A stretch of DNA of 64,000 bases from Lytechinus pictus (lineage: Eukaryota): positions 18,230,001-18,294,000 of the forward strand of contig NC_087250.1 of assembly GCF_037042905.1 (NCBI RefSeq). Reading direction: 5' to 3'. Each line of letters opens with the position of its first letter. Within the stretch, counting starts at the first letter, position 1. Under the pieces are notes generated by a model. That model saw only the letters and a program-made list of their open reading frames with translations. It did not search any database and was not told the DNA's origin. This document shows positions 2,880-57,807 of the stretch, piece after piece. The position numbers and the translations under genes were made by a program.

Positions 2880-4481
2880 AAACAATGTAACGAAGTAATG
2901 AACAAAAAAGGCCTACAAATGATGATATGAGTATTGAACACAATGGTCAATTTTTTACAGAAAAACAAGATATTGTTAATATTTTTAAATGATTATTTTG
3001 TAAGTATTGGGAAAAAGATTCAAGACAGCATAGACGGTGGACGTTCAGATCCTAAACTAGACAAAAGTCACTGGTTAAAGGGAAATTACTTTCGTCTATT
3101 TTCTTTTGTCCAGTTAAAACTTGTGATGTTATTAAAATTATTAAAGGACATATTTTTATGACTTTCGGAGTATTGCAAATGACTTAATCAGTAATTATTT
3201 ATCAAACGGGAAACAGTTTGTTAGCATTGGAAATTTTACTTCTTCTGGCAATGCAATTTCCACAGGCTTGGGGAAAGGTTCAAACTTGGCCCTCTTCTCT
3301 TTCGGTTATATGTGAATGATTTACCGAATTCTAGCGATATATTATCTTTTATTTTATTCGCAGACGACACAAGCCTTTTTGTTTCTGATGATAATCTAGT
3401 AAGAGCATCCAATTGCATTAATATTGAGTTACAAAAAGTTCATTCTTGGTTTGTACTAAATTTTGATAAAACAAATTTAATAATTTTCAAAACAAAAAAT
3501 GAATGCCTGGATTTAGGTCAAATTAAAATATATATTGATGATAATGAAATACAAATGACAGGATCTGTAAAATTTCTTGGTGTGAAATTGGACAATAAAT
3601 TAATTTGGAAAGATCATGTAGATGAAATTTCTCGTAAGATATCCTGTGTTATAGGAATATTGAGTAGAATTAAACATATTTTACCAATGTCAGTTTTCCT
3701 GAAATTATATAATGCTATGATCTTGCCACAGTTGAGTTATTGTAACATCATATGGGGAAATTGTCCAAAATACTTATTACAGAGGTTACACTTGTTGCAG
3801 AAACGTGCTATTAGAATAATTACAAAGTCATCATACCTTGCCCATACAAACATAATTTTTTTAAATCTCAATATTTTAACAATATTTGACCTGAATGTTT
3901 ACTGCGTTGCCGTATTTATTTATCAGTATTTTAAAAGTGTTTTGCCTGAATGTTTTAGTGATTCATTTATTTTTCTAAGTGCTGTCAGGAAATATGCATT
4001 AACAAGACACTATAATGATCTATACTCGCCAAAGAACCGAACTGATTTTTCTCTTTCCATTATTAATTACAGAGGACTTATGATTTTGAATAATTTGAAA
4101 TCAGAACAGAAATCTTACCAGTCAATATCTCTTTTTAAAAGACAATACAAATCATCTCTTATTAATTCATAGTTCATTCAATAGACTTTCAGTTGCCTGT
4201 TTTTGCCTTTTTTTTTCTTTTTGTATTGGTGTATATTTTATTTATTTGTATGTTGTGTTCGGGGACTAGCCTTGATAGGCCTCTGGCCTTTGCTGGTCCC
4301 CTGCTTCCGGTACATGTATGTTGTGCTTTCAATTGTTGTAATTGTTATCTCTAAAATTGTATTTTGCTTTTTTTATCTCTTGCCTCTTTAGAATATTTTT
4401 TAATATTGTTTTATTATGTTAAATGTATGATTTTATCTTGGATGCAAATAAAAGGCCATATCGGCCAATCAATCAATCAAT
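2880..4481 (+). pseudogene. 5'-truncated, internally deleted CR1/L2-group LINE (Crack/Daphne-like): RT C-terminal half, 3' UTR and (CAAT)n tail
   Basis: ORF 3312-4172 has VNDLP...ILFADDT, VKFLGVKLDNKLIWKDHV and LSYCNIIWG...LQKRAIRII. GSNLGPLL lies just upstream in another frame. AATAAA is at ~4447 and caatcaatcaatcaat at 4466-4481. Confidence 0.9.
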
Positions 4482-7190: not shown

Positions 7191-7383
7191 GAGTGAAATA
7201 CTCACTAAGAAATGATTTTTGACAAAATGTTTATTTTCTCGATATTCAAAATGGCCGCCATAATGAGTTTAGACAATAATTTGCACTTACTTTACTCTTA
7301 AACTTAGGTAATTTTAAGAGTCAAAGTGAATTAAAGCTTTGATGTATTTGCGATGTGTTGATATGACTGCAAAGAGATACATA

Positions 7384-7630
7384 CACTGCAAAACTCCGGT
7401 GTTGATTTAACACCCGCCTGGAATCTACATATGTCCACACAAGAGAAGTGTTAAACAACACCAGTTTGGTTTTGGTCTAACACCAAATATGTGTTTATAG
7501 TTATACACCACCAATTAGTATTAAAAAAGTCTCGGTTTGATTCCAAACTGGAGTTATTTCAATACTTCTCTGGTGTGGACAGATATAGATTCCAGGCAGG
7601 TGTTAAATCAACACCGGAGTTTTTGCAGTG
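7384..7630. mobile_element. Palindromic MITE with CACTG...CAGTG ends (EnSpm/CACTA-like) and 2-bp TA flanks
   Basis: ta|cactgcaaaactccggtgttgatttaacacccgcctggaatcta ... tagattccaggcaggtgttaaatcaacaccggagtttttgcagtg|ta. The arms pair over most of the length. Confidence 0.85.
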
Positions 7631-7929
7631 TACCTACGCACGAAATATGACACCAGAGATTGCGGATATCATATAATATTGCATGGTCATTTTATTGAAC
7701 ATCATTACTACACATAGCACATGGATATTTCTGCACTGAAGGACCTGGGCTCCGTAACACAAAGGTTTGCGATGGAGAACTGCAAGATGACCCAGCGATG
7801 TTGACCGGAAGGTCAGCACGCTTTGTTGGAAGACCCTCGGTCTATGGTACATGGTACATAGACCGAACATACAATAGAAGCATGGTTGGACCGTCAATGC
7901 TTGAAACTGTAGATGATCTTAAAGTTGAC

Positions 7930-9308: not shown

Positions 9309-10377
9309 CAGTCAGTCCGCAAGCCCCTGTGTTAATGAGCAAATGAGCAAGATTTATCCAAGTCCTCTCGTGGCTGAATTCATGTCCCTGCAAAATCTCG
9401 TGAATTGTGAGACTTTCTTTCTCAAAGAATTTAACTTTTTTCTCCTTGAGTAATATTGATTATTTTTGTACCATGGGCAAGAGTAAATGTTACTCTTTTA
9501 TATTGGTCATTTCTTTTGAATGAAATATTTTGATAAATAAGTGAATTTTTTACCTGAAAAGATGCATCAAATAGAATTTTCTTCCTCTGTTTTCACTTGC
9601 AAATTGTGCAACATTTTGTGTTTTAGGCACCAACATTATTTATATCATCAGAAAGCTCAAACTCTATACTTTCTTACAATGTCACTCTTGATATGTGGCA
9701 TCTTTTAGATGGGTCAGCAGCCAGCTTTTTCCATCAAGATGCAAGACGAGATTTCTGAAATTTCTGAGTAACATAAAATCCAGAGTTCTGATTGGCTGAA
9801 TACTGTTTTCAAAACAAACAGGCGCGGGTAATTTGAAGAGATTACCACATGGTGAGTGTGACCTTGCAGAGGCCCAGTGTGGGGAACGTTGGAATTTGCG
9901 TGGGTGTGTGGTCTCTATGACCAATCAGAGCGCAGTATTCTTGTTTTTGAGCTGCAAAATGTACTTGGCCTATGAAAAGCTGGCTGCTGACCCATCTAAA
10001 ATACATCTTCTTATAAAAATTATATCATATTAAAGCTTAAATCTTCAGCTTTATCATGAGCTAAAAATCATTTGTGCCCAAACAGAAATTAAGTGTGAAA
10101 ACAACAGCTTTTGTTGCATGGAAAAAAAATATTTCGTTTCATGTTTTAGATCAGAAGTTTTTCCTATATTAAAACAAACAGATGATCTGAAAGAATTATT
10201 CTTCTTCTTTACAAAGATACCAAAAACATGAAATTTTGTCAATATTTAGAGCAGCAATGGCCGAATAAAAAGAGGTGTTTTGGTTCGCACCAAGCTCATT
10301 AACTATGCAAAAACCCTCTAGTCATGAATATCACTTGGATAAAAGAAGCTACTTTTTGAGGGCTTGCGGACTGACTG
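9309..10377. mobile_element. Non-autonomous DNA transposon with a perfect 18-bp TIR and probable 2-bp GT target duplication
   Basis: gt|cagtcagtccgcaagccc ... gggcttgcggactgactg|gt. The joined flanks (taaatcatacacatttgtgtatacc) align with the uninterrupted paralog taaaccatcgccaatggtgtatacc at ~51934. Confidence 0.8.
9703..10001. repeat. Internal 27-bp perfect inverted repeat pair (nested MITE or subterminal structure)
   Basis: ttttagatgggtcagcagccagctttt (9703-9729) pairs with aaaagctggctgctgacccatctaaaa (9975-10001). An inner ctgattgg/ccaatcag pair is also present. Confidence 0.75.
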
Positions 10378-13220
10378 GTGTATACCATTTACCATAAGAA
10401 AGGATCACCAGTCATTCTTTAAGTCGCTCCTAACTTACGAACAGCTTTAGGAAGCACCCACCAGGTTACCCTTGAGGGTGGCCACTGATATATGGGTTTT
10501 CTAATTCTCAGGAAGAGAGTTCCACTTGCAACTCGAAAACCTTACTTATTTTACGGATCAGCGTATCTTCGCGATCCGTTTAAAAAACTTTAGTATTACT
10601 TAAATATTTGACATACATATTTGTAGCTATCGCCATTATATATAAATGTATTTAATACAATAAGAGATAGTTTGTATAAATATACCTAAATGTTAAAAGA
10701 TTTATTCCTCAAAGTGATGCGATCTAAAATTATTACTCATACATATTACATTAAAAAATCAAAACATTTTTAATTCGTCAAAATGAACATACACAAACTT
10801 TTAACAATTTTCAACTCTGAATTTTAAATGAAATGGAGAGCATTTTTGTTTTAATCGAATTTTTTTAGAGTTGTAATCGATAGATCATATTATATAATAG
10901 GTAGAATCTAAATTTTTTGGTGGGGTTGTTAATTCTACATAAAAACAATAAATTAACAAATATTCAAATTTCTGTTGTAGAATTTTGTAAAAAACTAACA
11001 TTAAAGTTACAATAAAAAATCCCAAAAATAGATAAATCAACAGATGATTAGCTGTCAACTGCTAACCATGCCATACGCTCCCTTTCTTTTCTGATATTGA
11101 TTTCTGTAACGCTTTCTGTATTACGTCACATTAATCGTCCCCAGCACCTTAACAGTTGTGCTACTCGTCTTTTATATTCCGCCGTGACACACCTCCTGAA
11201 CCCTGTTCTATAAATTGCACTGGCTCTCTATTAGACATTGGATTATTTTGAAATTGCTTCGTTTTGTATACAAATCACTATATAAACTGTCCCCCAAAAT
11301 ACATGTCTGATTGTTTAGAAATTTACATCCCAGGTAGAAGAAATAGATCCTCTGAAGACCCACTTAAATCAACACATCCAACTAAAACAAAACAGACCAG
11401 AAATAGAACATTATCTAATATGTCATTCTGTTCTATCTTTTTTTTTTATAAATAAGTTAAACTGAAATTGCGCGCCGTTTTCTGCCATGTGGGGAAAAGC
11501 TCGATATAAATATCTTATTATTATTGTTATTTTTATTATTGTTATCATTATTTTTTATTATTATTTTCATTATTATTTGTATTATTATTTTTTTTCTTTT
11601 TTTTAGCATTCCATTGGCGAATCATTTATAGTGGACGTTCCACCAAGCGTGATATCTTGTCCTTCATATCTTATATACGACTTTTTTCAAAAAATACTTT
11701 TGTGGATCTAGCCCTATTTGCCAACAAACTGAAATGGATCTAACCTATTTTGAAAATAACGATATTTTTTCTTTGCCTTTTTTGTTTTGTTTACTTTTTA
11801 ATGGGAATATCAACTTTGTTTTGATATTATCTTATCGGGGCTTCCAAGTATTTTTATAGTGTTAAATAAATCATATGTAACAATATATTGATCTAGGTTT
11901 TTTTTCTAAAACGGACCAGCATAATTCCTCAATCCGTGAAAAAAATTAATTGAATAAAATTTGACGTGTCTAATTCGTACATTTAAATTTTAAAAGGGTG
12001 TATATATAATATAATATAATTAAAAAAAAGTTTATTAAAATCTACCCACATTCCAAAATATCATACATTTGAATTCAGAGGATTTAAAAATATTACTCAT
12101 GTTTAATACATTTTTGGAATAATTCAATTCATTTATATGAACATAAACATTTTTTTCGATTTTTTTTTTACACTGAATTTAAAATGAAATATAATACCGA
12201 TTTTTCTTTTAATCGTAGTTCGGAATTATATTTTAGACTTGTAATCGATAGATCAAATTCAATAAGAGGAAGAACATTAATATTCTGCATCAAAATCATC
12301 AATTAACAAATGTTAAAATATCTGTTGTAGGTCAATGTTAAGACTGACATAAAATTTACAATAAAGAATCTTAAGAATAAATGAATTAATAGATGATTAT
12401 TCATTGCATTCTGTTGGCGAAACATTTACAGTGGACGTTCATCCAAGCGTCATGAAGCTTTGCTTTAATAAAGGTAGAAAAATACTGGCGAAGGTCTGGT
12501 GAAACTCCATAAAAAAGATGGTTAAGCTTTGTTTTAAGTTTTTTATTAAAGAAGTCATGTGCGAGCAGCATTCCCGAATATTAGTGAATTCTATTTGTTT
12601 TGATATTATTTATGACGAATACAAATATTGTTCTTATAGAAAGTTGCGGTATGAACTGTTGTGTCTGATGACGAATTCGTGTTTTTCCAGAGGGGGGCAC
12701 ATTTTTTCTAGGAAAATAAATTTACAAATATAATTGAATATCAATTGAAGTTCCATGGTAAGACTGACATGAAAGTGCAATAAAAAAATATACAAAGTAT
12801 ATAGACTAATAAATTATCTATTCCATCCTCTTGGCGACTTAATTATTGTGGACGTTCGAATAGGTGTCGTGAAGTTCGCTTTAATAAGAGGGGGAAAATA
12901 GAAAAATATTGGTGAAGGTTTTGTGAAGAAATCTTTCCAAGAAAGAGAGTTGAAATGAATTTATAAAGCTTTTAATTTGTGACGTCATGCACCATCCCCA
13001 TATAATATGAGCAAACTGTATTAATATGCTTAAAATTCATCGTTATATATCAGCAATTTTCACATTTTTCAACCTGGTGTCGAAACGAACGAAGAACTTC
13101 AATTTGCTTTGTGGTAATATTCAAGTACTACTGGGTAGATATGCAAAAAATTGATAACCAAGAAAATTACATTTGTTTTAACATTGACAAAAATAATATT
13201 TCAGTGCTAAAGCAGTCGGC
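10378..13220 (+). repeat. Host tandem repeat copy 1, 5' part (continues at 50468-51947)
   Basis: Collinear with 51948-54855 and, up to 12717, with 60343-62600. The same spurious ORFs recur (12518 vs 54107). Confidence 0.92.
11130..11400 (+). pseudogene. L2-like LINE ORF2 C-terminal relic within the host repeat (paralogs at ~52730-52980 and ~61040-61260)
   Basis: With one frameshift it reads YKLHWLSIRHWIILKLLRFVYKSL...PKYMSDCLEIYIPGRRNRSS. This matches the LHWLP..RI.FK...YK.L...P.YL......Y.P.R.LRSS tail typical of L2/CR1-group LINEs. Confidence 0.7.
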
Positions 13221-13805
13221 TATGAGGCGCCGAATGTACCAATATTATATAGAACAATTATTTGTTATATAATCATTATTTATTAAATAATAACTATTAT
13301 TTATATATAATTTACATTTTATTTGTAAATAACTACTATTATATAAAACATAATTTCTAATTATTTATATATAATTCCAAGTAATACTTCATTACTTGTA
13401 AATAATAATAGTTCGACATTCCATTATTTATAAATAATGACTATTTGTTTTTCAATATTTATAAATAATGATTATTTGTTTTTCATTATTTACAAATAAT
13501 GATTATTTGTTTTTCATTATTTATAAATAATGATCATTTGTTTTTCATTATTTATAAATAATGATTATTTGTTTTTCATTATTTATAAATAGTGATTATT
13601 TGTTTTTCATTATTTATAAATAATGATTATTTGTTTTTCATTATTTATAAATAATGATTATTTGTTTTTATATTATTTATAAATAATGACACTACATACT
13701 TCATTATTTATAAATAATGACACTACATACTTCATTATTTATAAATAATTGCAATTCGTTTTTCCGTTATTTATAAATAAGTTTTCTATTATTTATAAAT
13801 AATAA
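13221..13805 (+). repeat. Left TIR, outer segment, with a 31-bp AT-rich minisatellite (~8 copies)
   Basis: Reverse complement of ~49783-50461. The unit ttatttataaataatgattatttgtttttca contains the palindrome ttatttataaataa. Confidence 0.95.
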
Positions 13806-14164
13806 GATTATTCGAATAAGCGAAGAAGATAGTTTGCGAGAGAAGACAGGTCTTCTCAAAAAACCAATTATTGGCAAGCCATACACGGCCCGCGAAAACA
13901 AAGCGCGCCCCTGCGATTCCGCGGGAATTCTCCAAGGACACGCCCCCAGCAACATGTCTGTGATTGGCTGGGCATGTCATGGATGGCGCCGTTACACAGC
14001 GCCCTTGGTGACAGCCAGGCAACGGCAACGGGGGCACAGCCTCTACGCTAAAAAGAACCAATGAAATGCATTGAAAGAATTCAGGGACGTGCGCAATACG
14101 CGACAGATTTGGAAGCACATGTTCATTCTCAACTAAGCTCTGGGGGATGCAAGACGTTAATTTG
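13806..14164 (+). repeat. Repeat A1 (GC-rich, several CCAAT/ATTGG motifs; candidate promoter)
   Basis: Direct repeat of 18233-18591. It contains ccaatt, gattgg and ccaatg. Confidence 0.95.
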
Positions 14165-17100
14165 TAGTTCGCTATGAAACCGTTCTTGGATCATCATAGT
14201 TTAGGCCTCACTTTAGCAGGCTAATACAAACAATTCAAGTACTAGTATTGCTCATCCCAGGTCACAGGGATGTCAGGATAAAATGGATCCCGAGAAAATT
14301 AATTCTCAGCGTTTTTATCAACATTATGAATGGCTAGCCGTCCAGATCTCGCTGACGACACGCTGGTGGAGCTGCAGAGTGCAGTGAAGGGATGGACGGA
14401 TACAACGCTGAATTACCGAACCCCTACAGGGACTATCTCAGTTAGGCCGGGATCACCGTTCTCGTTAGAGGTCTAACGTTAGATCGACCGCTATTTTGCC
14501 ACGGTCTATCGGTGAGACTGCAGAGTTGGAATATACATCAGCTTCCACAGGAATAATAAGTACTTTCAGTCAAACGGAAGCTCTGACCAATGCCGTGAAT
14601 GAGGATATTTGCCGGAGTTGTTCTCCTATGAGTACAACTAGGCCGATTGTCTTTTGAGGCTGTGCCTGTGATAAAACTGCCGGCGATGCTTCGAGTTCGA
14701 TGGAGCTGGATCTAGGTGATTGTTGATGCGAATGGAGTGGAGTTAGGGCCCGGACCACAGTGTATATATCTTGACCCGGTGAGTGTTTGGATCCATGTTT
14801 GTACTTGTAGTTGCACATCTTGACCTAGACCTTAAATGAATTTGGCCTGAACCGGCCGCTATAGTATAGCTATTACTTAACTTGGGGCCCGGAACTCTAA
14901 CGTTATAACTTGTGATACTAGATCCAGGCCTATATCTATTGACCAAATTCAAAGTTCCAACTCAGACTAAATGTCCTCTGGGCCTGGATCTATCCCTATA
15001 ACCCCTTTGGCTTTGGTTCTAGGGCCAACTATGATATACGATATCGATCTAATAGGACCGAACATTTTTCAATATATTTCTAATGTGGTTGCGGGAATGC
15101 AGGATAAATGGAAACTGAAGGACCTAGGCTAGCTTCGACTCGGCTTGGTTTGCGACTGGAGTTGAGTTGCTCCATGAGTTAAGTTGATTCAATATGACTT
15201 TATGAGAGCGTTGGTAAGGGTCGAATCAGAGGGCTTGGCGTCGCGCCCCACTCGGAAAGGCAGCGTTGAACAGTGGACTGAGTTGAATTATCAAATATTA
15301 GGTCAAAACCTATCACAATATGAGTTTTTTGTATTGGATCTAATTAAAGGATCAACATTCTGTTTCGCCAGCTGAGTCCCGGCTCATGCTACAAAATAAA
15401 CAAAAAAGAAATAATCGATGCTCCATACACCAAGCTGGATCCCACGATAATTTGAGCCCATTGATCAGCTGGCATTTTGTAACCAAATTCCCCAAAATGA
15501 ACAGGATAGGGGCTATAAATGAAACTGGGGTGGCTGCCTTCGGTGTGAACAGGGATACGATAAATATGATGAAATAAACTGCATTCGCCTACCGGTACTA
15601 AAACGATATTATTTATTGAGATAGATGGTAGAGGTATAGGTCGATGTACCGTAATCCGTATTTTGCTGTCCATTGGGCGTGTGTAATAATAGTTATTTGC
15701 TTGGTCAACTTCATCCTGTTCTGGACCTACATGAATTAACTGGCAGCTTAGTTGCTTGATGAGGTTGGGGAATGCTAAGATACGTCATTTTTTATAGACC
15801 TCTATTACCAAATTTCAGTTCGGAAATGTAGTCAATGTATGCCCAGCGTCCGTACCACTTATCCCTTCTCGCCGGCCTCGAGTTTATAAGATGGCGTAAA
15901 GATAAAACATAACCACAATAAAATATACGTTGATTGTATCATTCCGGGTGAGGAGGGGAAGTTGAGGGCGTTTGTGCCCCCCCCCCCCGAAATGCTCAAA
16001 AGAGCCCTGGAAAACCCCATTTATTGCCATGTTAAAGCTTATCCAACGCTGTAGGTTCGGCCCCTAGTTGTGAAAAGTGAAGGGAACGAGTGCGGGATTC
16101 ACAAATTCATTGGCATACTTTTTAAAAGGGCGCCTTGGAAAATCCCCTTTTATTGCAATTCTGGAGCGTTGCAAGTTAAGGCGATTAGTTGTGGAAAGTA
16201 TAAGGGAACAGGTATGGAATTCCTTGCACACATTCTTGTCACGTTGTGTTGAACAATACTCTGCCGGAAGATTTGTTTGTTTTTTACCTCTCCAGGGACG
16301 TGGAGTCTGAAGTTAATTGGCCAGGGCACAAATGATCAAGCCTAGACCCAGACTGATGTACGAGGAGACTTAGCTAAGCTTGACCTGGACTGGTGTCCGA
16401 AGGGACAGGGCTTAGACTTGGCTTACTATGGTTCACATTGGATGACAGTGGTTGCAAAGGTTTTCACACTGCAAGATGAGAAATCCGGATTTATTTGAAG
16501 ATGCCGGATTTATGGTTTAACGTAATGCTCTAAATAGACGAGAGGTTGAGAAATGCAGTGATCAAGATCCTTAAGTCCAGACTTGAAGAGGAAACATGAA
16601 TAATCTCGAAGTTGTTGAGAAGTATAACCCTTTCGGAGAAAACTAAAAAACCTTGGAAAAAAGGGGCATTATGGGAACACCTTCAGTTCGTATCTATTTG
16701 TAATTCTGGGCAGCCAGCAAAGTCGGTTGAAGCATCGATAACCAAGAATATAAACAAAAACTGTGAGGCATGTCCCTCTGGTGCATTTATGTGCTTATAT
16801 ATGTCTCTTCCTTTAAGACATAACCTCACCTGTTGTAAGAGGCGATCTCATATATGAAGCCAACTTGAATGTGGGAATGCACGCCTTGATTTTTATGCCC
16901 CCATTTAACTTCATTAATCGATGTGGAATGGATATTATTTGTTTCGATTCACACTGGTGACCAAAAACGGAAAAAAAAAAAGAAAAAAAAAAAAGAGAGA
17001 AAAAAAAAAAAAAAAACTTGCGAACAACATTCACTCGCAGGGGGAATGAAATAAGCAAGGATGCGATGTTGTCAAGCTTGTTAATGGTTTAGAGTGAGAA

Positions 17101-17761
17101 TGGTTGGCCAATGTCCAATTGATGTAGAAATATTTATAACAACTTGGAGGTGTAGACGAAGAGTATGGTATATGATGCGTCCATTCGTTGATCGCATGAG
17201 ATTGCTTTGTATGGAATAATTTTTTGATTGTTGACTATCCATTCCGATGGCTGGCATGGTTTATTGATCATTAACTTAGTTGTTGTCCTTGATTATTGAA
17301 TTGGCTGGGTTGTCGAGCGTGAAAACTCACTTTTGAACTTATGGCTTGGTTGGGCTTGGTTACAGAATTACCGACTGATTATTATCGGTAGCTTTGACAT
17401 CAGCTTTCCAGGGGAGGCAATGGTTTGATAATTTAAAGTCGACGGCACCGATGCACGGCCCTCTATTCTACCATTTAGGGTCGCCGCCGAGGAGGCAGAA
17501 TATGGGACAAAAGAAGATGACGCTCATATTATATATTTTGGTCCTAGTGCAGAGGACAAGGGAGAGAGAGCATAATTTATGGGTTTCCGAAACCATGAGT
17601 TGCAACCAGGAAACCAGACGCGATGGTTTGGGAGGGATGGCCTTGACATGAAGGGACTCCCAAAATCCAATAGTGTTTGCCAAGTGTCACGGCCAAAAAA
17701 AAAAAAAAAAAAAAAAAATGATTATTTGGGGCTTTCGCTTTTTTGTGGGTATTTTTTTTAT

Positions 17762-18591
17762 ATCGGTCAAATTTCAACACCAGGGGGAGGCACTGTATAC
17801 TAATTATGTCAAGAAAATCGGGACAGGGGAACCCAACTTTCCAAAGTCTCCTGGTTTGGAAGTCCGGCTGGATGTCTTCCGGCAGGTTCCCCTTCCAAGA
17901 ATTCACGTTCTGGTCTTGAAGCCTCTCCCCCAATTTTATTTCACACATGAGATAATCTTGTATTGAATAGATGATAAATGTAAAGAGGGGAATCCGCACC
18001 CCAGGAAATACCTGTCCTGGGATCCCGTTGGATCTCTTCCTTCTGGGAGGTCACGTGACCCGGTTTCCCCCTTAAAATCTGGTTGATTGTGGCTTGATGA
18101 ATATTGTTTAGAAACTGTGTACTTGTTAAAATATTGTAAATGTCGTTTTAATGATTCTGGTAAAATCCCCCAGAGGCAATAAAGTTGAGAAACGGCAATT
18201 TCATGTTCGATCTGTATTTATTCTCGCAATAAGATTATTCGAATAAGCGAAGAAGATAGCTTGCGAGAGAAGACAGGTCTTCTCAAAAAACCAATTATTG
18301 GCAAGCCATACACGGCCCGCGAAAACAAAGCGCGCCCCTGCGATTCCGCGGGAATTCTCCAAGGACACGCCCCCAGCAACATGTCTGTGATTGGCTGGGC
18401 ATGTCATGGATGGCGCCGTTACACAGCGCCCTTGGTGACAGCCAGGCAACGGCAACGGGGGCACAGCCTCTACGCTAAAAAGAACCAATGAAATGCATTG
18501 AAAGAATTCAGGGACGTGCGCAATACGCGACAGATTTGGAAGCACATGTTCATTCTCAACTAAGCTCTGGGGGATGCAAGACGTTAATTTG
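17762..18591 (+). repeat. Abutting B1-A2 junction
   Basis: ...tttattctcgc AATAA gattattcgaataagcg... joins the element's right end to its left end. An AATAAA signal lies ~45 bp before the end of B. Confidence 0.95.
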
Positions 18592-18859
18592 CCCTCCCTC
18601 CCGCCCATTTAATAATGGTTGTGAGTGGTTGGTTATAATATTGTCAGGGTCGGAGGGTATTGTTTCTGCCTCCAAAAATGTGGTACACATGTTATGAAAA
18701 AAGATGGATGATATAATACATGGTTGTTAATAATTCTGTCGTGATTTTTGTTTATACTCAAATCTGTCAAAGGCGATTGTGCTAATTAATCTAAATGTGG
18801 TAATAGCGAATTTTAAAGACGGGGCTCGAGATTGCTCAATGAGCCTGTTTAAGTGCAAA

Positions 18860-20225
18860 TTGTGCCGGTTACAGTTGATTGAAATAACCTTATATTTTGG
18901 TTGGTTATACTGTTGATAGATAACATGGATTTATTTTGGTTGGTTGGCTGGGCATGTGTTTGGATAGAATTGCATTGGTTGCATAGGCTTGTATTAGTTG
19001 ACTGGATGGGCTTGATTGGCTTGTTGGTCGGATAGACTTGCATTGGTTGGTTGGGCGATATGTTTGGTTGTTTATTATCATAAGGATCCACGCTCTACAA
19101 GCAAGGCTTTTAGTGGATCCCCTCATTTCCAAACAAGTTCTTGTTAATACAATTGCCCAAATTTTCATAATTTGTCTATAGTTGATTTGTAATTACAATT
19201 GTTGTGTATTTGTGTTTATGCATTTAGTGCATATTTGATTTGTACCGTGATTTTTTTATGATGTACATGACGGAAGTTCAAAATGAACTCGTTTTTATTC
19301 GGTTGGATGTGCTTGCGCTGGTTGGGTGGATGGGCTTGCTATGATTGGTTGGTTGGTTATAATGATCATAGATTCACGCTCTCCAAGTAGTTATTTTAGT
19401 GGATCCCCTCATTTCCAACCAAGCTATTAATACTTTTGTACAAATTTTAAAATTTTGTCTGTAGTGGACCGGCAATTACAATTTATATGTATTTGCAAAT
19501 TGTTTATGCGCACTATGATGCATATTTAATTCGTGTTTGTATTTGGTAATGATGTACAAGATGAACTGAAATTTGTTTGGTGGCTTTATATGGTTGGTTG
19601 GCTGGGCTTGTTCTGGTTGACTACAATTGCACAAATTTTCATAATTTGCAGTTGATTTGGAATTATAATTGATGTGTATTTGTGTTAATGCATTTGATGC
19701 ATATTGATTGGTACCGTAATTTTTTTTGTGATGTACATGACGGAAGTTCAAAAGGAACTTGTTTTGTTTGGTTGGATGGGCTAACATTGGTTGGATCATG
19801 GACCTACTGGTTGGATGTTTGGGCTTGTTATGATTAGTTGATTGGTTATGATCATATCGATCCACGCTCTATCAGCAGATCCTTTAAAAAGATCCCCTCA
19901 GTTTCAACCAAGCTGATAATACTATTGTACAAATATTGAAATTGTGTCCGTAGTTGACTTGTAATTACAATTGATATGTATTGTCATTGTTTATGCATCA
20001 TATCATTTATAATTGATTTATGTTTGTATGTGGTAATGATGTACAAGGTGAACTTAAACTCGTTTGGCTAGTTAGGTTGGCTTTACATGGTTGGATGGTT
20101 GGATGGGCTTGTTATGGTTGGTTGGTCGGGCTTGTTATGGTTGGTTGGTCGGGCTTGATATGGTTGGTTGGATGGGCTTGTTTTGGCTGGTAGGATGGGC
20201 TTGTTTTGGTGTTTGGCCTGATTAC
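18860..20225 (+). repeat. TTGG-rich, strand-skewed degenerate tandem repeats in the A2-B2 spacer
   Basis: gatccacgctct...gatcccctca...aag recurs at ~19086, ~19371 and ~19858. ~23-bp tggttggtyggrtgggcttgtta-like units occur at 20088-20205. Confidence 0.8.
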
Positions 20226-20242
20226 TGAGTATTTTTTCTTAG

Positions 20243-20708
20243 ATCGGTCAAATTTCAACACCAGGGGGAGGCACTGTATACTAATTATGTCAAGAAAATC
20301 GGGACAGGGGAACCCAACTTTCCAAAGTCTCCTGGTTTGGAAGTCCGGCTGGATGTCTTCCGGCAGGTTCCCCTTCCAAGAATTCACGTTCTGGTCTTGA
20401 AGCCTCTCCCCCAATTTTATTTCACACATGAGATAATCTTGTATTGAATAGATGATAAATGTAAAGAGGGGAATCCGCACCCCAGGAAATACCTGTCCTG
20501 GGATCCCGTTGGATCTCTTCCTTCTGGGAGGTCACGTGACCCGGTTTCCCCCTTAAAATCTGGTTGATTGTGGCTTGATGAATATTGTTTAGAAACTGTG
20601 TACTTGTTAAAATATTGTAAATGTCGTTTTAATGATTCTGGTAAAATCCCCCAGAGGCAATAAAGTTGAGAAACGGCAATTTCATGTTCGATCTGTATTT
20701 ATTCTCGC
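20243..20708 (+). repeat. Repeat B2 (3' terminal)
   Basis: Direct repeat of 17762-18227. Confidence 0.95.
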
Positions 20709-20713
20709 AATAA

Positions 20714-21875
20714 TTATTTATTATCAATGCCAGTGCACATTTCTTTATTTATAAATAATTTGTTGAGTTTTCCATTATTTATAAATAAAGATTATTTGTT
20801 AAATTATGAAATATCTACTTCATTATTTATAAATAATAATTTAGTTTCAATATCCCATTATTTATAAATAATCATTATTTATAAACAATTTTTACAGTTT
20901 GCCATTATATACAAATAATCATTATTTATATACAAATAACCATTATTTATTAAATAATGCCATTATTTATTAAATAATGCCATTATTTATTAAATAATGG
21001 AAAACTCGCTATAACATGCAAATGTGGGACCGCCCATGATATGAATATTCATGATGCGATTTCCTTTTTCGTGATTTTTCTTCACAAATTTTTGTCCATT
21101 TCCTCTTCATAATGACATTTCTTGAAGCAATTTTCTAGGGATATGGTCTGATTGTAATATTCTTCATTTTCTATATAACTTCGTCTTCGTAGAAATATCA
21201 AAAAGTGTAATTTTATACGGTTTTTCCTACAGTTCACAATCCCCATAGGCGCGCGTGTATCGTGGGGACAACCGGTGAATCGACGGAGTGCTCTTCATCG
21301 AAATACTACGTTGGTTGGTCCCCGGAAGTGGCTGGCGGAATTTAGCCCGAATCCTCGATGGAAGTCGATCAAGTGCATATGAGCTGAGAGAGTGAAATAT
21401 CAGTGTACTTGTACAGGCCCTTCTACTTTTTATAAATATTTCTTGTTGCTTTTTTTGTTAAGTTAATTTTTCCTGGTGTAGAGATAAGTTTCAGTTCTAA
21501 TAATGCACTTCAAATACATTTTGGAGTGTCTGTTTGGGGCGATTTCACCCTGGCCCCAAAATGCTCGCAACGACAATACGGGGGCATGATGACCCCTAAT
21601 TTTTTTCTATTGAAAATTATCACAAAATTCACCAAAAGTGTGCACGAAAGCCTTCGTATTTCACTTTTAAAACTCCAAAAAGTGCCAAAATGACAAGCTT
21701 GGTCGCTTCGGTGTGTCGCTTTCAACTTGAGAAAGTTTACGCGTCTGCTTCCCCCCCCCCCTCCTCCGAAAGAAATTCTGTATACGGCCATGCTCTAAAG
21801 AGCCTGGCACATTGATTTATGTATACTTCATTTTCATTATTTTTATCTCATTATCATCATGGCCTTACGCAGAAT
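20714..21875 (+). repeat. Left TIR, inner segment (resumes after the SDR insertion)
   Basis: Reverse complement of ~48479-49782 with few substitutions and some indels. Confidence 0.95.
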
Positions 21876-48044: not shown

Positions 48045-48720
48045 GGGGGAGCAGGACGCGCGTAAACTTTCTCATAAAAATCTTGAAAAAGCGGAGCGAC
48101 CAAGCTTGTCATTTGAGCTTGGTCGCGTCGCTGTCTCGCTTTCAAGATTTTTTTGAGAAACTTTACGCGCGTCCTAGCTGCTCCCCCCCCCCCCCCTGGT
48201 AAAAATTCTGTGTAAGGCCATGATGATAATGTGATAAAAATAATGAAAATGAAAAGTACATATAAATCAATGTGCCATATGCTCTTTTGAGCATGGCCGT
48301 TCACGGAATTTCTTTCGCAAGGTGGGGGCAGACACGCGTAAACGTTCTCAAGTTGAAAGCGAGACAGCGAAGCGACCAAGCTTGTCATTTGGGCTTGGTC
48401 CCGTGGCTGTCTCGCTTTCAAGATTTTTTTGAGAAAGTTTACGCGCGCCATGCTCCGGCCCCGGCCCCCCTGGAAAAAATTCTGCGTAAGGCCATGTTGA
48501 TAATGAGATAAAAATAATGAAAATGAAAGTATACATAAATCAATGTGCCAGGCTCTTTAGAGCATGGCCGTATGCAGAATTTCTTTCGGAGGAGGGGGGG
48601 GGGAAGCAGACGCGTAAATGTTCTAAAGTTGAAAGCGACACAGCGAAGCGACACAGCGAAGCGACCAAGCTTGTCATTTGGGTACTTTTTGGAGTTTTAA
48701 AAGTGAAATACGAAGGCTTT
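48045..48720. repeat. Three ~275-290 bp units built around hairpins with core gcgaccaagcttgtcatttg
   Basis: The core is at ~48097, ~48372 and ~48661. ggacgcgcgtaaactttctca...tgagaaactttacgcgcgtcc forms a stem at 48054-48174. Confidence 0.8.
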
Positions 48721-50461
48721 CGTGCACACTTTTGGTGAATTTTGTGATAATTTTCAATAGAAAAATAAGTTTTTAAAAATTTAGGGGTCATCATGCCCCC
48801 GTATTGTCGTTGCGAGCATTTTGGGGCCAGGGTGAAATCGCCCCAAACGCCTCAAACAGACACTCCAAAATATATTTGAAGTGCATTATTAGAACTGAAA
48901 CTTATCTCTACACCAGGAAAAATTAACTTAACAAAAAAAGCAACAAGAAATATTTATAAAAAGTAGAAGGCCTGTACAAGTACACTGATATTTCACTCTC
49001 TCAGCTCATATGCACTTGATCGACTTCCATCGAGGATTCGGGCTAAATTCCGCCAGCCACTTCCGGGGACCAACCAACGTAGTATTTCGATGAAGAGCAC
49101 TCCGTCGATTCACCGGTTGTCCCTACGATACACGCGCGCCTATGGGGATTGTGAACTGAAGGAGAAATCGTATAAAATTACACTTTTTGATATTTCTACG
49201 AAGACGAATGTATATAGAAAATGAAGAATATTACAATCAGACCATATCCCTAGAAAATTGCTTCAAGAAATGTCATTATGAAGAGGAAATGGACAAAAAT
49301 TTGTGAAGAAAAATCACGAAAAAGGAAATCGCATCATGATTATTCATATCATGGGTGGTCCCACATTTGCATGTTATAGCGAGTTTTCCATTATTTAATA
49401 AATAATGGCATTATTTAATAAATAATGGTTATTTGTATATAAATAATGATTATTTGTATATAATGGCAAACTGTAAAAATTGTTTATAAATAATGATTAT
49501 TTATAAATAATGGGATATAGAAACTAAATTATTATTTATAAATAATGAAGTAGATATTTCATTATTTAACAAATAATCTTTATTTATAAATAATGGAAAA
49601 CTCGAACATTAAATAATGATTATTTATAAATAATGAGAATAATGGTGCACTCGAAAAAATTATTTATAAATAATGAAGTAGACGTTTTCATTATTTAACA
49701 AATAATCATTATTTATAAATAATGGAAAACTCAACAAATTATTTATAAGTAAAGAAATGTGCACTGGCATTGATAATAAATAATTATTATTTATAAATAA
49801 TAGAAAACTTATTTATAAATAACGGAAAAACGAATTGCAATTATTTATAAATAATGAAGTATGTAGTGTCATTATTTATAAATAATATAAAAACAAATAA
49901 TCATTATTTATAAATAATGAAAAACAAATAATCATTATTTATAAATAATGAAAAACAAATAATCATTATTTATAAATAATGAAAAACAAATAATCATTAT
50001 TTATAAATAATGAAAAACAAATAATCATTATCTATAAATAATGAAAAACAAATAATCATTATTTGTAAATAATGAAAAACAAATAATCATTATTTATAAA
50101 TAATGAAAAACAAATAATCATTATTTATAAATAATAAAAAACAAATAATCATTATTTGTAAATAATGAAAAACAAATAATCATTATTAATAAATAATGAA
50201 AAACAAATAATCATTATTTATAAATAATGAAAAACAAATAATCATTATTTATAAATAATGGAAGGTCGAACTATTATTATTTACAAATAATGAAGTATTA
50301 CTTGGAATTATATATAAATAATTAGAAATTATATTTTATATACTAGTAGTTATTTACAAATAAAATGTAATTTATATATAAATAATAGTTATTATTGAAT
50401 AAATAATGATTATATAACAAATAATTGTTCTATATAATATTGGTACATTCGGCGCCTCATA
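48479..50461 (-). repeat. Right TIR (1,983 bp, uninterrupted), with ~12 copies of the 31-bp minisatellite
   Basis: Reverse complement of 13221-13805 joined to 20714-21875. Confidence 0.95.
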
Positions 50462-50467
50462 CTCGGC

Positions 50468-51947
50468 TATGAAACTAGAAATGAGAGCAACCTTGATATT
50501 TCTACAGGCCTCGTTCATAACTGGCCCGCGACAAAATTATTACTAAAAATTAGTATCTTAAAACTGATTATTTGGCACTATAACATGTATATATAATTTA
50601 TTTAATATATTAAAAAAATAGTTAAAATAAATTAACCTATACCTTAAAAGATTATTCCTTTAAAGTCATAAAATCTGATATATTACTCATACATATAAAT
50701 TTATTTACAAAAGTTACGTTTTTTAATCTTCATGTTTGTCAATGTGAGTCTCCATCGACATTTTAAACTTTTCAAAACTGAATTTGAGACGAACTTTTGA
50801 AACACGTTTTGAAGTTAATCGCAGTTCTGTGTTTTGTAGACCCGTAATCGATTAATAAGATTTTAGAAGCAAGCATTTTTCCCCCCATTTTATTCCACAT
50901 CAGAATCATAAATTTACAAATATTATTGATCAATTGAAGTTCCATGGTAAGACTGATATGAAAGTACAATAAAAAATAATATTGAGAGTAAATATACTAA
51001 TAAATATTATCTATTCCATCCTATTGGCGACTTAATTATTGTGGACGTTCGAACAGGTGTCGTGAAGTTCGCTTTAAAGATAAATTCCAGGTCTGGTAAC
51101 GATCTCAAAATGACTTTTTACATTATCTAATATAATGACCACCCAAGTGTCTGCTTGTATGAATAAAAAAATATGTGCCAAAGGATTCTGGAAGAAATTG
51201 TGTAATTGCTGAGAAATAAGCAAAATAAGCGCGGATTCGGTCACTTCCGTCGGGTCTTTATTCCAGCAATAATAATACACTGTCCCACGTGTGCCTATCT
51301 GTGTTGGTGATCTTCAGTGTGAACATTTTTCAGCGTAGATTTCAAGATTTCACAAAGTTCAGTTCATGTAACTGTACCAGATCTAGATCCTCGATGATAT
51401 ACTGACAATTACGCCTGGTTTTACAGACTTTCTCATGAAATCAGTGTTTACTGCAACTACTGGCATTTCTCTTTAATAAGAGGGGGAAAATAGAAAAAAT
51501 ATTGGTGAATTTTTTGTGAAGAAATCTTTCCAAGAAAGAGAGTTATAATGAATTTCTGAAGCTTTTGATTTGTGACGTCATGCACCATCCCCATATAATA
51601 TGAGTAATCTCCCCATACAAATTTGCAGTGCTAACTGTCTTAATACATTTAAAGTTATGTTTAAAGGTCAAGTCCACCTCAGTTAAGTGTAGATAAGAAT
51701 CAATGGAAAAACCAGACAAAGCAAAATGCTGAAATTTGTGGAGGACACTCCAACCCGGTTTTGAATCGATTACTTTATGATGGGAGAATATAAAAAGAAG
51801 AATAAAAGAGCTTTCAATTTGCCATGGGGTAAGAAGGGCCAAGGAAAGACGAAGTCGATTGCAAAGATTGCAACACTTCTCAATTCAGCATTAACACGAT
51901 TTGTCTAACGACTGGTGAACCTTTCATACGCGCTAAACCATCGCCAA
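50468..51947 (+). repeat. Host tandem repeat copy 1, 3' part
   Basis: Collinear with 54856-56440. Confidence 0.92.
51078..51472. mobile_element. Kolobok-like MITE with TTAA TSD
   Basis: ttaa|agataaattccag ... ctggcatttctct|ttaa. The empty site gaagttcgctttaataagaggggg is at ~12871 and ~54507. Confidence 0.85.
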
Positions 51948-54900
51948 TGGTGTATACCATTTACCAAAAGAAAGAATCACCAGTCATTCTTAAAGTCGCT
52001 CTTAACTTACGAACAGCTTTAGGAAACACCCACCAGGTTACCATTGAAGGTGGCCACTGATATATGGGTTTTCTAATTCTGAGGAAGAGAGTTCCGCTTG
52101 CAGGAAATAAAACCTTACTTCTTTAACGGATCAGCGTATCTTCGCGATCCGTTTAAAAAACTATAGTATTACTTAAATATTTGACATACTTAATTACAGC
52201 TATCGCCATTATATATATATATGTATTTAATACAATAAGAGATAGTTTGTATAAATATACCTAAATGTTAAAAGATTTATTCCTCAAAATCATGCAATCT
52301 AAAATTATTACTCATACATATTACATTTAAAAAATCGTAACCTTTTTAATTTGTCAAAATGAACATACACAAACTTTAAACAATTTTCAACTCTGAATTT
52401 TAAATGAAATGGAGAGCCATTTTGTTTTAATCGTATTTCAGTATTTATTTTTTAGAGTTGTAATCGATAGATCATATTATATAATAGGTAGAATCTATAT
52501 TTTTTGGTGGGGTTGTTAATTCTACATAAAAACAATAAATTAACAAATATTAAAATTTCTGTTGTAGAATTTTTGTAAAAAACTAACATTAAAGTTACAA
52601 TAAAAAATCCCAAAAATAGATAAATCAACAGCTGATTAGCTGTCAACTGCTAACCATGCCATACGCTCCCTTTCTTTTCTAATATTGATTTCTGTAACGC
52701 TTTCTATACTACCTCTCATTGATCGTCCCCAGCACCTACACAATTGGGCTTCTCGTCATTTATAATCCGCCGTGACACACTTCCTGAACCACTGTTCTAT
52801 AAATTGCACTGGCTCTCTATTAGACATTGGATTATTTTGAAATTGCTTCGTTTTGAATACAAATCACTACATAAACTATCCCCCAAATTACTTGTCTGAT
52901 TGTTTAGAAATTTACATCCCAGGTAGAAGAACTAGATCCTCTGAAGACCCACTTAAATCAACATATCCAACTGAAAGAAAACAGACCAGAAACATAACAT
53001 TATTTAATATGTCATTCTGTTCTATGGTTTTTTTTATAAATAAGTTAAACTGAAATTGCGCGCAATTTTCTGCCATGTGGGAAAAGCTCGATATAAATAT
53101 CTTATTATTATTGTTATTATTATTATTGTTATTATCATTATTTTTTATTATTATTTTCATTATTATTATTATTTGTATTATTATTTTTTTTCTATTTTTA
53201 GCATTCCATTGGCGAATCATTTATAGTGGATGTTCCACCAAGCGTGATATCTTGTCCTTCATATCTTATATACAACTTTTTTCAAAAAATACTTTTGTGG
53301 ATCTAGCCCTATTGGCCAACAAACTGAAATGAATCTAACCTCTTTTGAAAATAACGATATTTTTTCTTTGTCTTTTTTGTTTTGTTTACTTTTTAATGGG
53401 AATTTCAACTTTGTTTTGATATTATCTTATCGGGGCTTCCTTGTATTTTTATATTGTAAGTAAATCATATGTAACAGTATATTGATCTAGGTTTTTTTCT
53501 AAAACGGACCAGCATAATTCCTCAGTCCGCGACAAAGTTGGTTGAATAAATTTTGACGTATTTCGTTTTTAAGATATCTGAAAAGGATATATATATAATA
53601 TATTATAATAAAAAAACGTTTATTAAAATGTACCCACATTCCAAAATATCATACATTTAAATTCAGAGAATTTAAAAATATTAATCATGTTTAATACATT
53701 TTTAAAAAAAAATCAAATTATTTATATGAACATGAACAATTTTTTCGATTTTTTTTTTACACTGAATTTAAAATGAACTATAATACCGATTTTTCTTTTT
53801 ATCGTAGTTCGCTATTATATTTTAGACTTGTAATCGATAGATCAAATTCAATAAGAGGAAGAACATTAATATTCTGCATCAAAATCATCAATTAACAAAT
53901 GTTAAAATATCTGTTGTAGGTCAATGTTAAGACTGACATAAAATTTACAATAAAGAATCTTAAGAATAAATGAATTAATAGATGATTATTCATTGCATTC
54001 TGTTGGCGAAACATTTACAGTGGACGTTCATCCAAGCGTCATGAAGCTTTGCTTTAATAAAGGTAGAAAAATACTGGCGAAGGTCTGGTGAAACTCCATA
54101 AAAAAGATGGTTAAGCTTTGTTTTAAGTTTTTTATTAAAGAAGTCATGTGCGAGCAGCATTCCCGAATATTAGTGAATTCTATTTGTTTTGATATTATTT
54201 ATGACGAATACAAATATTGTTCTTATAGAAAGTTCCGTCATGAACTGTTGTGTCTGATGACGAATTCGTGTTTTTCCAGAGGGGGGCACATTTTTTCTAG
54301 GAAAATAAATTTACAAATATTATTGAATATCAATTGAAGTTCCATGGTAAGACTGACATGAAAGTGCAATAAAAAAATATACAAAGTATGTAGACTAATA
54401 AATTATCTATTTGGTTGGTTGGTGTTGGAGTTAAGTTGGCGCTCTTCAATCTGGTAGATTATCTGCTTGGCGACTTAATTATTGTGGACGTTTGAACAGG
54501 TGTCGTGAAGTTCGCTTTAATAAGAGGGGGAAAATAGAAAAATATTGGTGAAGGTTTTGTGAAGAAATCTTTCCAAGAAAGAGAGTTGTAATGAATTTCT
54601 AAAGCTTTTAATTTGTGACGTCATGCACCATCCCATATAATATGAGCAAACTGTATTAATATGCTTAAAATTCATCGTTATATATCAGCAATTTTCACAT
54701 TTTTCAACCTGGTGTCGAAACGAACGAAGAACTTCAATTTGCTTTGTGGTAATATTCAAGTACTACTGGGTAGAAATGCAAAAAATTGAATACCAAGAAA
54801 ATTACATTTGTTTTATCATAGACAAAATTAATATTTCATTGCAAAAGCAGTCGGCTAGGAAACTAGAAATAAGAGCAACCTTGCTATTTCTACAGGCCTG

Positions 54901-56440
54901 GTTCATAACTGGCCCGTTACAAAATTGTTACTAAAATTAGTATCTTAAAACTAATTTATTGGCACAATAACATGTATATATAACTTATTTAATATATTTA
55001 AAAAATAGTTAAAATAAATTAAGCTATTCCTTAAAAGATTATTCCTTTAAAGTCATAAAATCTGATATATTACTCATACATATAAATTTATTAACAAAAA
55101 TTACGTTTTTTAATCTTCATGTTTGTCAATGGTGAGTCTCCATCGACATTTTAAACCTTTCAACACTGAATTTGAGACGAACTCTTGAAACATGTTTTGA
55201 AGTTAATCGTAGTTCTGTGTTTTGTAGACCCGTAATCGATTAATAAGATTTTAGAAGCAAGCATTTCCCCCCCCCCCCCCATTTTATTCCACATCAGAAT
55301 CATACATTTACAAATATTATTAAATATCAATTGAAGTTCCATGGTAAGACTGATATGAAAGTACAATAAAAAATAATATTGAAAGTAAATATACTAATAG
55401 ATATTATCTATTCCATCCTCTTGGCGACTTAATTATTGTGGACGTTCGAACAGGTGTCGTGAAGTTCGCTTTAAAGATAAATTCCAGTTCTGGTAACGAT
55501 CTCAAAATGACTTTTTACAGAATCTAATATAATGACCACCCAAGTGTCTGTTTGTATGAATAAAAAATATGTGCCAAAGGATTCTGAAAGAAATTGTGTA
55601 ATTGCTGAGAAATAAGCAAAATAAACGCGGATTCAGTCACTTCCGTCGGGTCTTTATTCCAGCAATAATAATTCACTGTCCCATGTGTGCCTATCTGTGT
55701 TGGTGATCTTCAGTGTGAACATTTTTCAGCGTAGATTTCAAGATTTCACAAAGTTCAGTTTATGTAACTGTACCAGATCTAGATCCTCGATGATATACTG
55801 ACAATTACGCCTGGTTTTACAGACTTTCTCATGAAATCAGTGTTTACTGCAACTACTGGCATTTCTCTTTAATAAGAGGGGGAAAAATAGAAAAAATATT
55901 GGTGAATTTTTTGTGAAGAAATCTTTCCAAGAAAGAGAGTTATAATGAATTTCTGAAGCTTTTGATTTGTGACGTCATGCACCATTCCCATATAATATGA
56001 GTAATCTCCCCATACAAATTTGCAGTGCCAACTGTCTTAATACATTTAAAGTTATGTTTAGAGGTCAAGTCCACCTCAGTTAAGTGTAGATAAGAATCAA
56101 TGGTAAAACCAGACAAGCAAAATGCTGAAATTTGTGGAGGACACTCCAACCCGGTTTTGAATCGATTACTTTATGATGGGAGAATATAAAAATAAGAATA
56201 AAAGAGCTTTCAATTTGCCATGGGGTAAGAAGGGCCAAGGAAAGACGAAGTCGATTGCAGAAATTGCAACACTTCTCAATTCAGCATTAACACGATTTGC
56301 CTAAGGCAGTCTACTTTTCTCAAATCTGGACCTGACTACCAGGAATGTTTTCAGAGGGCCGTTTCATAAAGCTGTTCGTAAGGTAAGAGCGACCTTAAGA
56401 ACGACTGGTGAACCTTTCTTACGCGCTAAACCATCGCCAA
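51948..56440 (+). repeat. Host tandem repeat copy 2 (~4.49 kb, lacks the giant insertion)
   Basis: tggtgtataccatttaccaaaagaaag at 51948 recurs at 56441. Confidence 0.92.
55475..55868. mobile_element. Kolobok-like MITE, duplicated together with the host repeat
   Basis: Same position and ends as 51078-51472. Confidence 0.85.
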
Positions 56441-57188: not shown

Positions 57189-57807
57189 CACCCAAGGCAA
57201 GGGTTCATTACATGCCGCCACGCACAGAAAAATCAAGCCATAGAAGTCGTGTGTTGTGGACCCAAGAAGTGAGATCCCAGACGCCTCCAGGCTAAGCACG
57301 CGCGACCCACTAGTTAGAAATCCACTGCCAAACGCGGTTCGTGGTGCGGGGTTAGTATACTTAATACGTGTGAGTGGCACAATTCCAGCAGATTTTTTCT
57401 TCAGATTTCTAAAACTGGTCAGGACTCAGGCAGGCAATTAAATTATTTAGGAGCACTGAGCTGAGTGGTATGGACCATGGCTGAAAATCTGCTGTTTCAG
57501 AGGAATGTTTAAGTTTTTATTATACACAGAATTATATCACCATGATGCCGATGTCATGAAGCCAGACAAATTTTCAGCAGTGATTACCCTGATTCCTGGC
57601 CAAAATCACTCACACGTATTGCGAGGTTAGTATTAGTATACTACTAGTACGTATTGCGAGGTTAGTATTAGTATACTAACCACGAACCGCGTTTGGCAGT
57701 GGATTTCTAACTAGTGGGTCGCGCGTGCTGGGATCTCACTTCTTGGGTCCACGACTTCTATTGCTTGAATTTTCTGTGCGCGGCGGCATGTAATGAACCC
57801 TTGGGTG
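57189..57807. mobile_element. Nested foldback MITE with ~140-180 bp arms and CAC...GTG ends
   Basis: 57189-57367 is the reverse complement of 57666-57807 apart from short indels. There is a ~35-bp tandem duplication near 57615-57680. Confidence 0.8.

What the first reader, a model, noticed from the sequence alone, without database searches (positions are those of the whole stretch)
18205..18275. Internal B/A junction looks like an att-type recombination site with an AATAA core
Seen: the left border is host-AATAA-A, the right border is B-AATAA-host, the internal junction is B-AATAA-A, and the empty site in the right TIR has a single host-AATAA-host. Dyads surround the junction: ttatt-ctcgc-aataa, ttattcgaataa, and tctcgcaa paired with ttgcgaga. 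Inference: this is what a circular intermediate recombining with the target through a shared 5-bp core would leave. A random staggered-cut TSD would not also appear inside the element. The target is rich in ttatttataaataa palindromes that resemble the element's own ttattcgaataa, which hints at target preference.
Basis: partly seen in the sequence, partly recalled or inferred. Interest (0 to 1): 0.7.

Follow-up and report, generated by a model that had tools for sequence, protein, structure and literature searches.

The report
Gene-less split-repeat retrotransposon junction
A 6.9-kb insertion with no recognisable genes carries the same short AATAA stretch at both ends and at an internal joint, the known layout of tyrosine-recombinase jumping genes, so it was likely inserted by a borrowed recombinase crossing over at a likely three-letter AAT match; it is an ordinary new example of a known design.

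Summary
A 6,908-nt element (13806-20713) has the order A1-interior-B1-A2-spacer-B2. A1/A2 differ at 1 of 364 nt; B1/B2 are identical over 471 nt. AATAA stands at both borders, at the B1/A2 joint, and once in the empty site in the host's other inverted repeat. This is the split-direct-repeat layout of DIRS-order (Ngaro/PAT/TOC1) retroelements, and a short crossover core shared with the target is in print for DIRS1-like elements, mostly AAT/ATT (PMC3266345). No coding domain was found, so it is a likely non-autonomous passenger. Two corrections. The core is probably AAT: three contigs of another sample leave the element right after AAT into what look like unrelated flanks, and 90 of 191 AAT sites in this host run on as AATAA. 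Target preference for palindromes is not supported: the site is no more junction-like than other AAT sites. The joint is predicted to fold into a 71-nt hairpin with integron-attC-like geometry, but only modestly (rank 15 of 342 windows). No circle, transcript or helper element was seen. New member of a known kind; low interest.

The parts
13806..20713 (+). Whole split-direct-repeat element, counted with one copy of the core (6,908 nt)
13801..13805 (+). Left core AATAA (host|A1); AAT 13801-13803 is the likely crossover triplet
13801..14164 (+). Repeat A1 (364 nt with core); holds CCAAT/ATTGG boxes at 13864, 13870, 13963, 14058 (promoter role inferred)
14165..17761 (+). Unique interior 1 (3,597 nt), no Pfam domain, longest stop-free frame 131 aa; about 16034-17512 appears shared with another repeat family
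17762..18232 (+). Repeat B1 (471 nt, identical to B2); AATAAA at 18178 (polyadenylation role inferred)
18228..18232 (+). Internal B1/A2 core AATAA: built-in copy of the end-to-end joint
18209..18279 (+). Predicted 71-nt imperfect hairpin across the joint: outer stems, 8-bp stem 18222-18229/18261-18268, 5+6-nt internal loop, short inner stem
18228..18591 (+). Repeat A2 (one difference from A1, at 18260)
18592..20242 (+). Unique spacer between A2 and B2 (1,651 nt) with decayed internal duplications of about 470 nt and 23-nt tandem units
20243..20713 (+). Repeat B2, ending in the right core AATAA (20709-20713); AATAAA at 20659
49784..49788 (-). Empty paralogous target site (single AATAA) in the right terminal inverted repeat of the host foldback element

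Best explanation
The junction is the built-in end-to-end joint of a 6.9-kb split-direct-repeat element with no recognisable genes, which likely moves as a passenger of a DIRS-order tyrosine-recombinase retrotransposon and was likely inserted by crossover at a shared AAT. Shown: the A1-interior-B1-A2-spacer-B2 layout, near-identity of the paired repeats, one core at each border and one inside, a single core in the empty site, no coding domains. Inferred steps: (1) transcription from A1 to B2 (CCAAT boxes in A, AATAAA 50 nt before the end of B); (2) reverse transcription by a helper element's enzyme, with the internal B1-A2 joint serving as template to restore both ends, which keeps A1=A2 and B1=B2 (model published for the DIRS-1 internal region; its extension to split repeats is recalled from Goodwin and Poulter 2004, which I could not read); (3) an end-joined B2-core-A1 DNA circle; (4) recombination by the helper's tyrosine recombinase between the circle's AAT and a genomic AAT, leaving one core at each end and no true duplication. 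The extra AA is likely a chance match in an AT-rich target.
For: Layout and identities match the split-direct-repeat definition (PMC9210276, PMC6681497, PMC8547959). A 3-bp joint shared with the target, mostly AAT/ATT, without target duplication is described for DIRS1-like elements: 23 of 28 begin and end with NTT (PMC3266345; PMC7192593). A non-autonomous precedent exists: TOC1 (PMC5613634, PMC9940879). The element is real and present in other samples: one X9 contig runs spacer-B-A across the joint with 3 differing letters in two pieces of 211 and 682 nt, and the spacer-to-B joint is in both contig runs laid. Interior 1 (31-37 in its unshared part) and spacer (40-71 by bin) have similar depth in X3 and the B contig has 71, as one composite unit predicts (rough measure). 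Three X3 contigs leave B after AAT, with agreement typical of unrelated sequences. No terminal inverted repeat between A start and B end.
Against: No gag, RT/RNase H or recombinase was found in six frames, so the class rests on layout alone; no helper element was identified. The A2-B2 spacer of 1.65 kb is not part of the textbook B1A2B2 drawing. Only one insertion was seen with both borders; its 5-nt overlap has a 4-5% chance level in this host. The three loose-end contigs are given as one mixed consensus, may belong to sister families, show only the B side, and 35 of 56 loose-end rows were not displayed. In about 6% of each of two RNA runs no read covered A, B or the joint (54 and 34 partial reads, nearly all on another repeat near 16000-16046). 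Circular DIRS-1 junctions were not recovered by PCR even in the one experimental system (PMC7192593).
Confidence: 0.7

Rival explanations
1. Same element class, but the recombinase acts on a folded single strand: the + strand of the joint forms an integron-attC-like hairpin (8-bp box ending in AA, 5+6-nt unpaired spacer, short inner stem) and crossover at AAT occurs on one strand only.
For: Predicted + strand DNA fold has this geometry with AAT at the inner end of the 8-bp box, where attC has its AAC (PMC5027507). B-end x A-start duplex is in the best 4 of 571 and 2 of 609 control pairings as DNA. DIRS-1 cDNA is mostly single-stranded (PMC7192593). DIRS recombinases are grouped with integron integrases in the XerC/D-like clade (PMC3537659).
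Against: Fold strength is modest: z -1.9 to -2.8, rank 15 of 342 windows as DNA, 41 of 342 as RNA; at least 12 of 679 adjacent-window controls in the element pair more strongly. The third core base is unpaired, there is no extrahelical base in the inner stem, and the strand expected as first cDNA (minus) folds weakly (z about -1.1). No covariation data. The same complementarity could instead pair the two ends of the RNA.
Confidence: 0.12
2. Two non-autonomous DNA elements with the same ends (A...B) but different interiors sit in tandem; AATAA is a target-site repeat or a Crypton-type microhomology reused twice.
For: The long A2-B2 spacer makes A2-spacer-B2 look like a unit of its own; Crypton elements are flanked by 4-6 bp direct repeats reflecting microhomology (PMC13465315).
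Against: No terminal inverted repeats; the two interiors share no similarity while the ends are over 99.7% identical; similar depth of both interiors in another sample, and a contig of a different study crossing spacer-B-A.
Confidence: 0.1
3. The element inserts without any homology requirement (or by a non-recombinase strand transfer) and the 5-nt match to the target is chance.
For: Chance level of an overlap of 5 nt or more is 4.4-5.2% in this host array; left borders of other copies were not seen.
Against: The shared triplet is the one most often reported for DIRS1-like joints; no duplication or deletion at the site.
Confidence: 0.05
4. Assembly artefact or recent segmental duplication.
For: The site lies in a repeat-rich region next to a 25-kb satellite.
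Against: Clean empty paralogous site; interiors and joints found in contigs of two other studies.
Confidence: 0.03

Closest known systems
TOC1 of Chlamydomonas reinhardtii (non-autonomous version of TOC3; PMC5613634, PMC9940879, passages read)
   Same: Non-coding passenger of a tyrosine-recombinase retroelement; TOC elements are PAT-group elements with split direct repeats (PMC4157794, passages).
   Different: Different host (earlier notes of this scan call the genome sea-urchin-like; not checked here); no helper identified; 1.65-kb spacer. TOC1's exact repeat sizes were not read (Day 1988 not held).
Ngaro and PAT retrotransposons (order DIRS), e.g. Xenopus DIRS-53_XT, Cafeteria Ngaro1-4, VIPER
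   Same: A1 at the 5' end, B1-A2-B2 at the 3' end, paired repeats nearly identical.
   Different: No gag, RT/RH or YR here; A2 and B2 separated by a long spacer; cannot be placed in Ngaro versus PAT without proteins.
DIRS1-like circular junction (PMC3266345, PMC7192593)
   Same: Internal copy of the end-to-end joint, AAT triplet shared with the target, no target duplication.
   Different: [quoted passage not shown]
Integron attC site (PMC5027507, passages)
   Same: Predicted imperfect hairpin of 71 nt with a box, a 5-6 nt unpaired spacer and the crossover triplet at the inner end of the box.
   Different: Triplet AAT not AAC, RYYYAAC consensus not met, no extrahelical base in the inner stem, fold only modestly above background.

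Membership tests
Split-direct-repeat DIRS-order retroelements (Ngaro/PAT) | Order A1 ... B1 A2 B2 | tested here: met
   with a 1,651-nt spacer between A2 and B2
Split-direct-repeat DIRS-order retroelements (Ngaro/PAT) | A1=A2 and B1=B2 nearly identical | tested here: met
   363 of 364 and 471 of 471
Split-direct-repeat DIRS-order retroelements (Ngaro/PAT) | Gag, RT/RNase H and tyrosine recombinase ORFs | tested here: not met
   Six frames with stops read as X: 0 families in five frames, two non-significant hits (E 0.16, 0.23) in one. So not filed as an autonomous Ngaro or PAT member.
Split-direct-repeat DIRS-order retroelements (Ngaro/PAT) | Methyltransferase domain or RT/YR phylogeny that separates PAT from Ngaro | not testable with these tools
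   No protein; no genome held
DIRS order, integration signature | Short triplet shared by both borders, joint and target, no true duplication | tested here: met
   One full locus; B-side support from three contigs; definition from DIRS1-like elements
Non-autonomous TOC1-type passengers | Split repeats intact, no coding capacity | tested here: met
Non-autonomous TOC1-type passengers | Autonomous partner with related termini in the same genome; multiple dispersed copies | tested here: inconclusive
   No genome held; no look-alike in indexed windows; run contigs hint at several copies and sister families
DIRS1-like elements | Inverted terminal repeats plus internal complementary region | tested here: not met
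   Repeats are direct
Integron attC-type single-strand site | Imperfect hairpin of 57-141 nt with 5-6 nt unpaired central spacer | tested here: inconclusive
   Predicted 71-nt fold with 5+6-nt loop, but rank 15 of 342
Integron attC-type single-strand site | RYYYAAC/GTTRRRY box and extrahelical bases near the L box | tested here: not met
   Box ends in AAT with the third base unpaired; inner stem has a 1x1 mismatch, no bulge
Crypton or TIR/DDE DNA transposons | Single unit bounded by 4-6 bp repeats (Crypton) or by terminal inverted repeats (DDE) | tested here: not met
   Both ends recur inside the element; no terminal inverted repeat

The most novel reading that the evidence does not exclude
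Split-repeat retroelements integrate as folded single-stranded DNA: the B/A joint is an integron-attC-like hairpin that the borrowed tyrosine recombinase reads by shape, exchanging one strand at an AAT microhomology, which would explain why three letters suffice as a target.
Probability: 0.12. Interest if true: 0.7.

Novelty: new member of a known kind. Interest (0 to 1): 0.2.

Why it matters
As it stands it is a clean, young example of a known design, with filled and empty sites in one window; useful as a cis-signal model because it has only ends and no genes. It would matter more if the joint proved to be a folded single-strand recombination site, since how DIRS-order recombinases recognise their substrate is untested and the circular intermediate was not recovered even for DIRS-1.

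Tried and rejected
No whole genome is held, so copies could not be counted or aligned. Pfam on six frames of the element: nothing significant. Rfam on 13700-20800 at E 0.1: 0 matches. Scan of metagenome contigs for the first 20 nt of A: 0 matches. Look-ups of earlier findings by sequence for B+A and for interior 1, and by place: 0 windows each. Target preference for palindromes: rejected. Invariant 5-nt core: disfavoured. Terminal inverted repeats for A...B: none. Minus-strand hairpin: weak. Pfam on 8 ORFs elsewhere in the window: none reaches its cut-off. PMC3783388 held no passage on junctions. Day 1988 and Goodwin and Poulter 2004 are not held. Two searches for an attC/integron comparison with DIRS elements listed 1 and 2 papers; I read passages of one (PMC3537659), which makes no such proposal, and saw only listings of the other two; most subscription papers are outside the library.

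Full report
Observation. A self-comparison of the window shows two pairs of direct repeats: A at 13801-14164 and 18228-18591, B at about 17746-18232 and 20226-20713. A1 and A2 differ only at 13833/18260; B1 and B2 are identical for 471 nt back from the core (17762-18232, 20243-20713). The order is A1, 3,597 nt unique, B1, A2, 1,651 nt spacer, B2. AATAA lies at the left border, the B1/A2 joint and the right border, and once in the matching position of the host's other terminal inverted repeat (49784-49788, minus strand). The two host flanks placed end to end align with that empty copy without a gap at the site.

What the element is. No Pfam family reaches significance in six frames with stops read through; the longest stop-free frame in the unique interior is 131 aa; Rfam gives nothing. 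A1 at the 5' end and B1-A2-B2 at the 3' end is the definition of split direct repeats in Ngaro, PAT and VIPER retrotransposons (passages of PMC9210276, PMC6681497, PMC4157794; section 11 of PMC8547959). For DIRS1-like elements the literature describes an internal 3-bp circular junction, recombination with an identical genomic triplet, no target duplication, and NTT termini in 23 of 28 elements, most often ATT/AAT (passages of PMC3266345; PMC7192593). TOC1 is a non-autonomous member of the order (passages of PMC5613634 and PMC9940879). That the split-repeat joint works in the same way is my recall of Goodwin and Poulter 2004, which is not held; no paper I read tabulates cores for Ngaro or PAT. 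The element works like these; since the coding test fails it is filed as a non-autonomous split-repeat passenger, not as a Ngaro or PAT member.

Other samples. Sixteen of 21 listed runs hold part of the element, 9 of them half or more of its words. I laid 4 (two contig sets, two raw RNA runs) on 14165-20225. The spacer-to-B joint appears in both contig sets, and one X9 contig runs spacer-B-A through the joint. X9 and X3, from different studies, agree with each other against the window at 12 of 40 displayed substitution rows (28 not shown) and 5 of 12 displayed indel rows (4 not shown), including T at 18260, so A2's C is likely private to this copy; this looks like a family consensus, but copy number was not measured. 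Diverged B-like contigs and a doubled depth over about 16034-17512 point to sister families. The RNA runs (about 6% of each read) gave 54 and 34 partial reads, nearly all on another repeat near 16000-16046, none on A, B or the joint.

Core length. In X3, three contigs leave the reference directly behind 18230, that is after AAT, with a consensus agreement of 0.6. Three unrelated 30-mers from this window agree at 0.58 (95% range 0.51-0.67), two identical plus one at 0.76. So these look like three different flanks after B-AAT. Limits: one mixed consensus, possibly sister families, B side only, 21 of 56 loose-end rows displayed. In the host array 90 of 191 AAT sites continue as AATAA, so the two extra letters are easily chance. 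A homology-blind insertion would give an overlap of 5 nt or more at 4.4-5.2% of 2,084 host positions: this locus alone is suggestive, not decisive. The flanks of individual other copies remain unread.

Target preference. The 14-nt palindrome is simply the host's repeat unit (32 copies in the window). Scored over 6, 10 or 15 nt each side of AAT, 137 of 191, 104 of 191 and 125 of 188 AAT sites in the array resemble the junction as well as or better than the used one; 24 dyads with arms of 9 bp or more lie in 1,082 nt. The used site does sit on one such dyad (9-bp arms), which is unremarkable here. Not supported.

The dyads. The + strand across the joint is predicted to fold from 18209 to 18279: outer stems with G-T wobbles, an 8-bp stem ending in the core's AA, a 5+6-nt loop, a short inner stem. 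z is -1.9 (91 nt) and -2.8 (141 nt) as DNA, -2.8 and -2.4 as RNA; in an 80-nt scan of the element it ranks 15 of 342 as DNA and 41 of 342 as RNA, the minus strand 77 and 40. As a duplex, B end with A start is matched by 4 of 571 and 2 of 609 controls as DNA, 20 of 571 and 19 of 609 as RNA, and at least 12 of 679 adjacent-window controls are stronger. The geometry recalls integron attC sites (passages of PMC5027507), but the consensus box and extrahelical bases are not met. I took the attC comparison from earlier AI notes of this scan, which are leads and not independent support. The complementarity could equally pair the RNA's two ends during reverse transcription, or be incidental.

Verdict. 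Real, young, non-coding split-direct-repeat element; the joint is the known circle-junction copy, with a core likely AAT. Earlier notes report several other such families in this genome (unchecked). Shown: anatomy, empty site, absence of recognisable genes. Inferred: transcription, reverse transcription, circle, recombinase, helper. New member of a known kind; interest 0.2. No supplements were consulted.

Noticed in passing
window about 13221-50461: Host is a 37-kb foldback-type element: terminal inverted repeats of about 1.7 kb (13221-13805 plus 20714-21875; 48479-50461) with 31-nt palindromic tandem units, enclosing a 25-kb array of 230 copies of a 110-nt unit (22414-47777). A 9-nt stretch is duplicated at its two ends, partly overlapping the repeat tips; an empty site lies near 54850.
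   Followed up: partly
window 10376-13225, 50463-56304, 60341-62600: The foldback element interrupts one unit of a diverged tandem repeat of about 4.4 kb (85-96% identity between units).
   Followed up: no
window 16034-17512: Part of interior 1 has twice the depth in run X3 and contigs that continue into other sequence: likely a module shared with a sister element.
   Followed up: partly
window 15998-16046: A short fragment of another abundant repeat; the only part of the element with RNA reads.
   Followed up: no
window 18988-20210: Spacer holds decayed duplications of about 470 nt (70-77% identity) and 23-nt GT-rich tandem units with strong strand skew.
   Followed up: no
window 7382-7632, 57198-58088, 63005-63428: Short inverted-repeat or palindromic elements, MITE-like.
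   Followed up: no
window 3312-4172 (+): 286-aa open frame without a significant Pfam match.
   Followed up: partly
window 13920-14010 and 18350-18440: Inside A, a GC-rich stretch folds more strongly than the joint (top of the adjacent-window controls).
   Followed up: no
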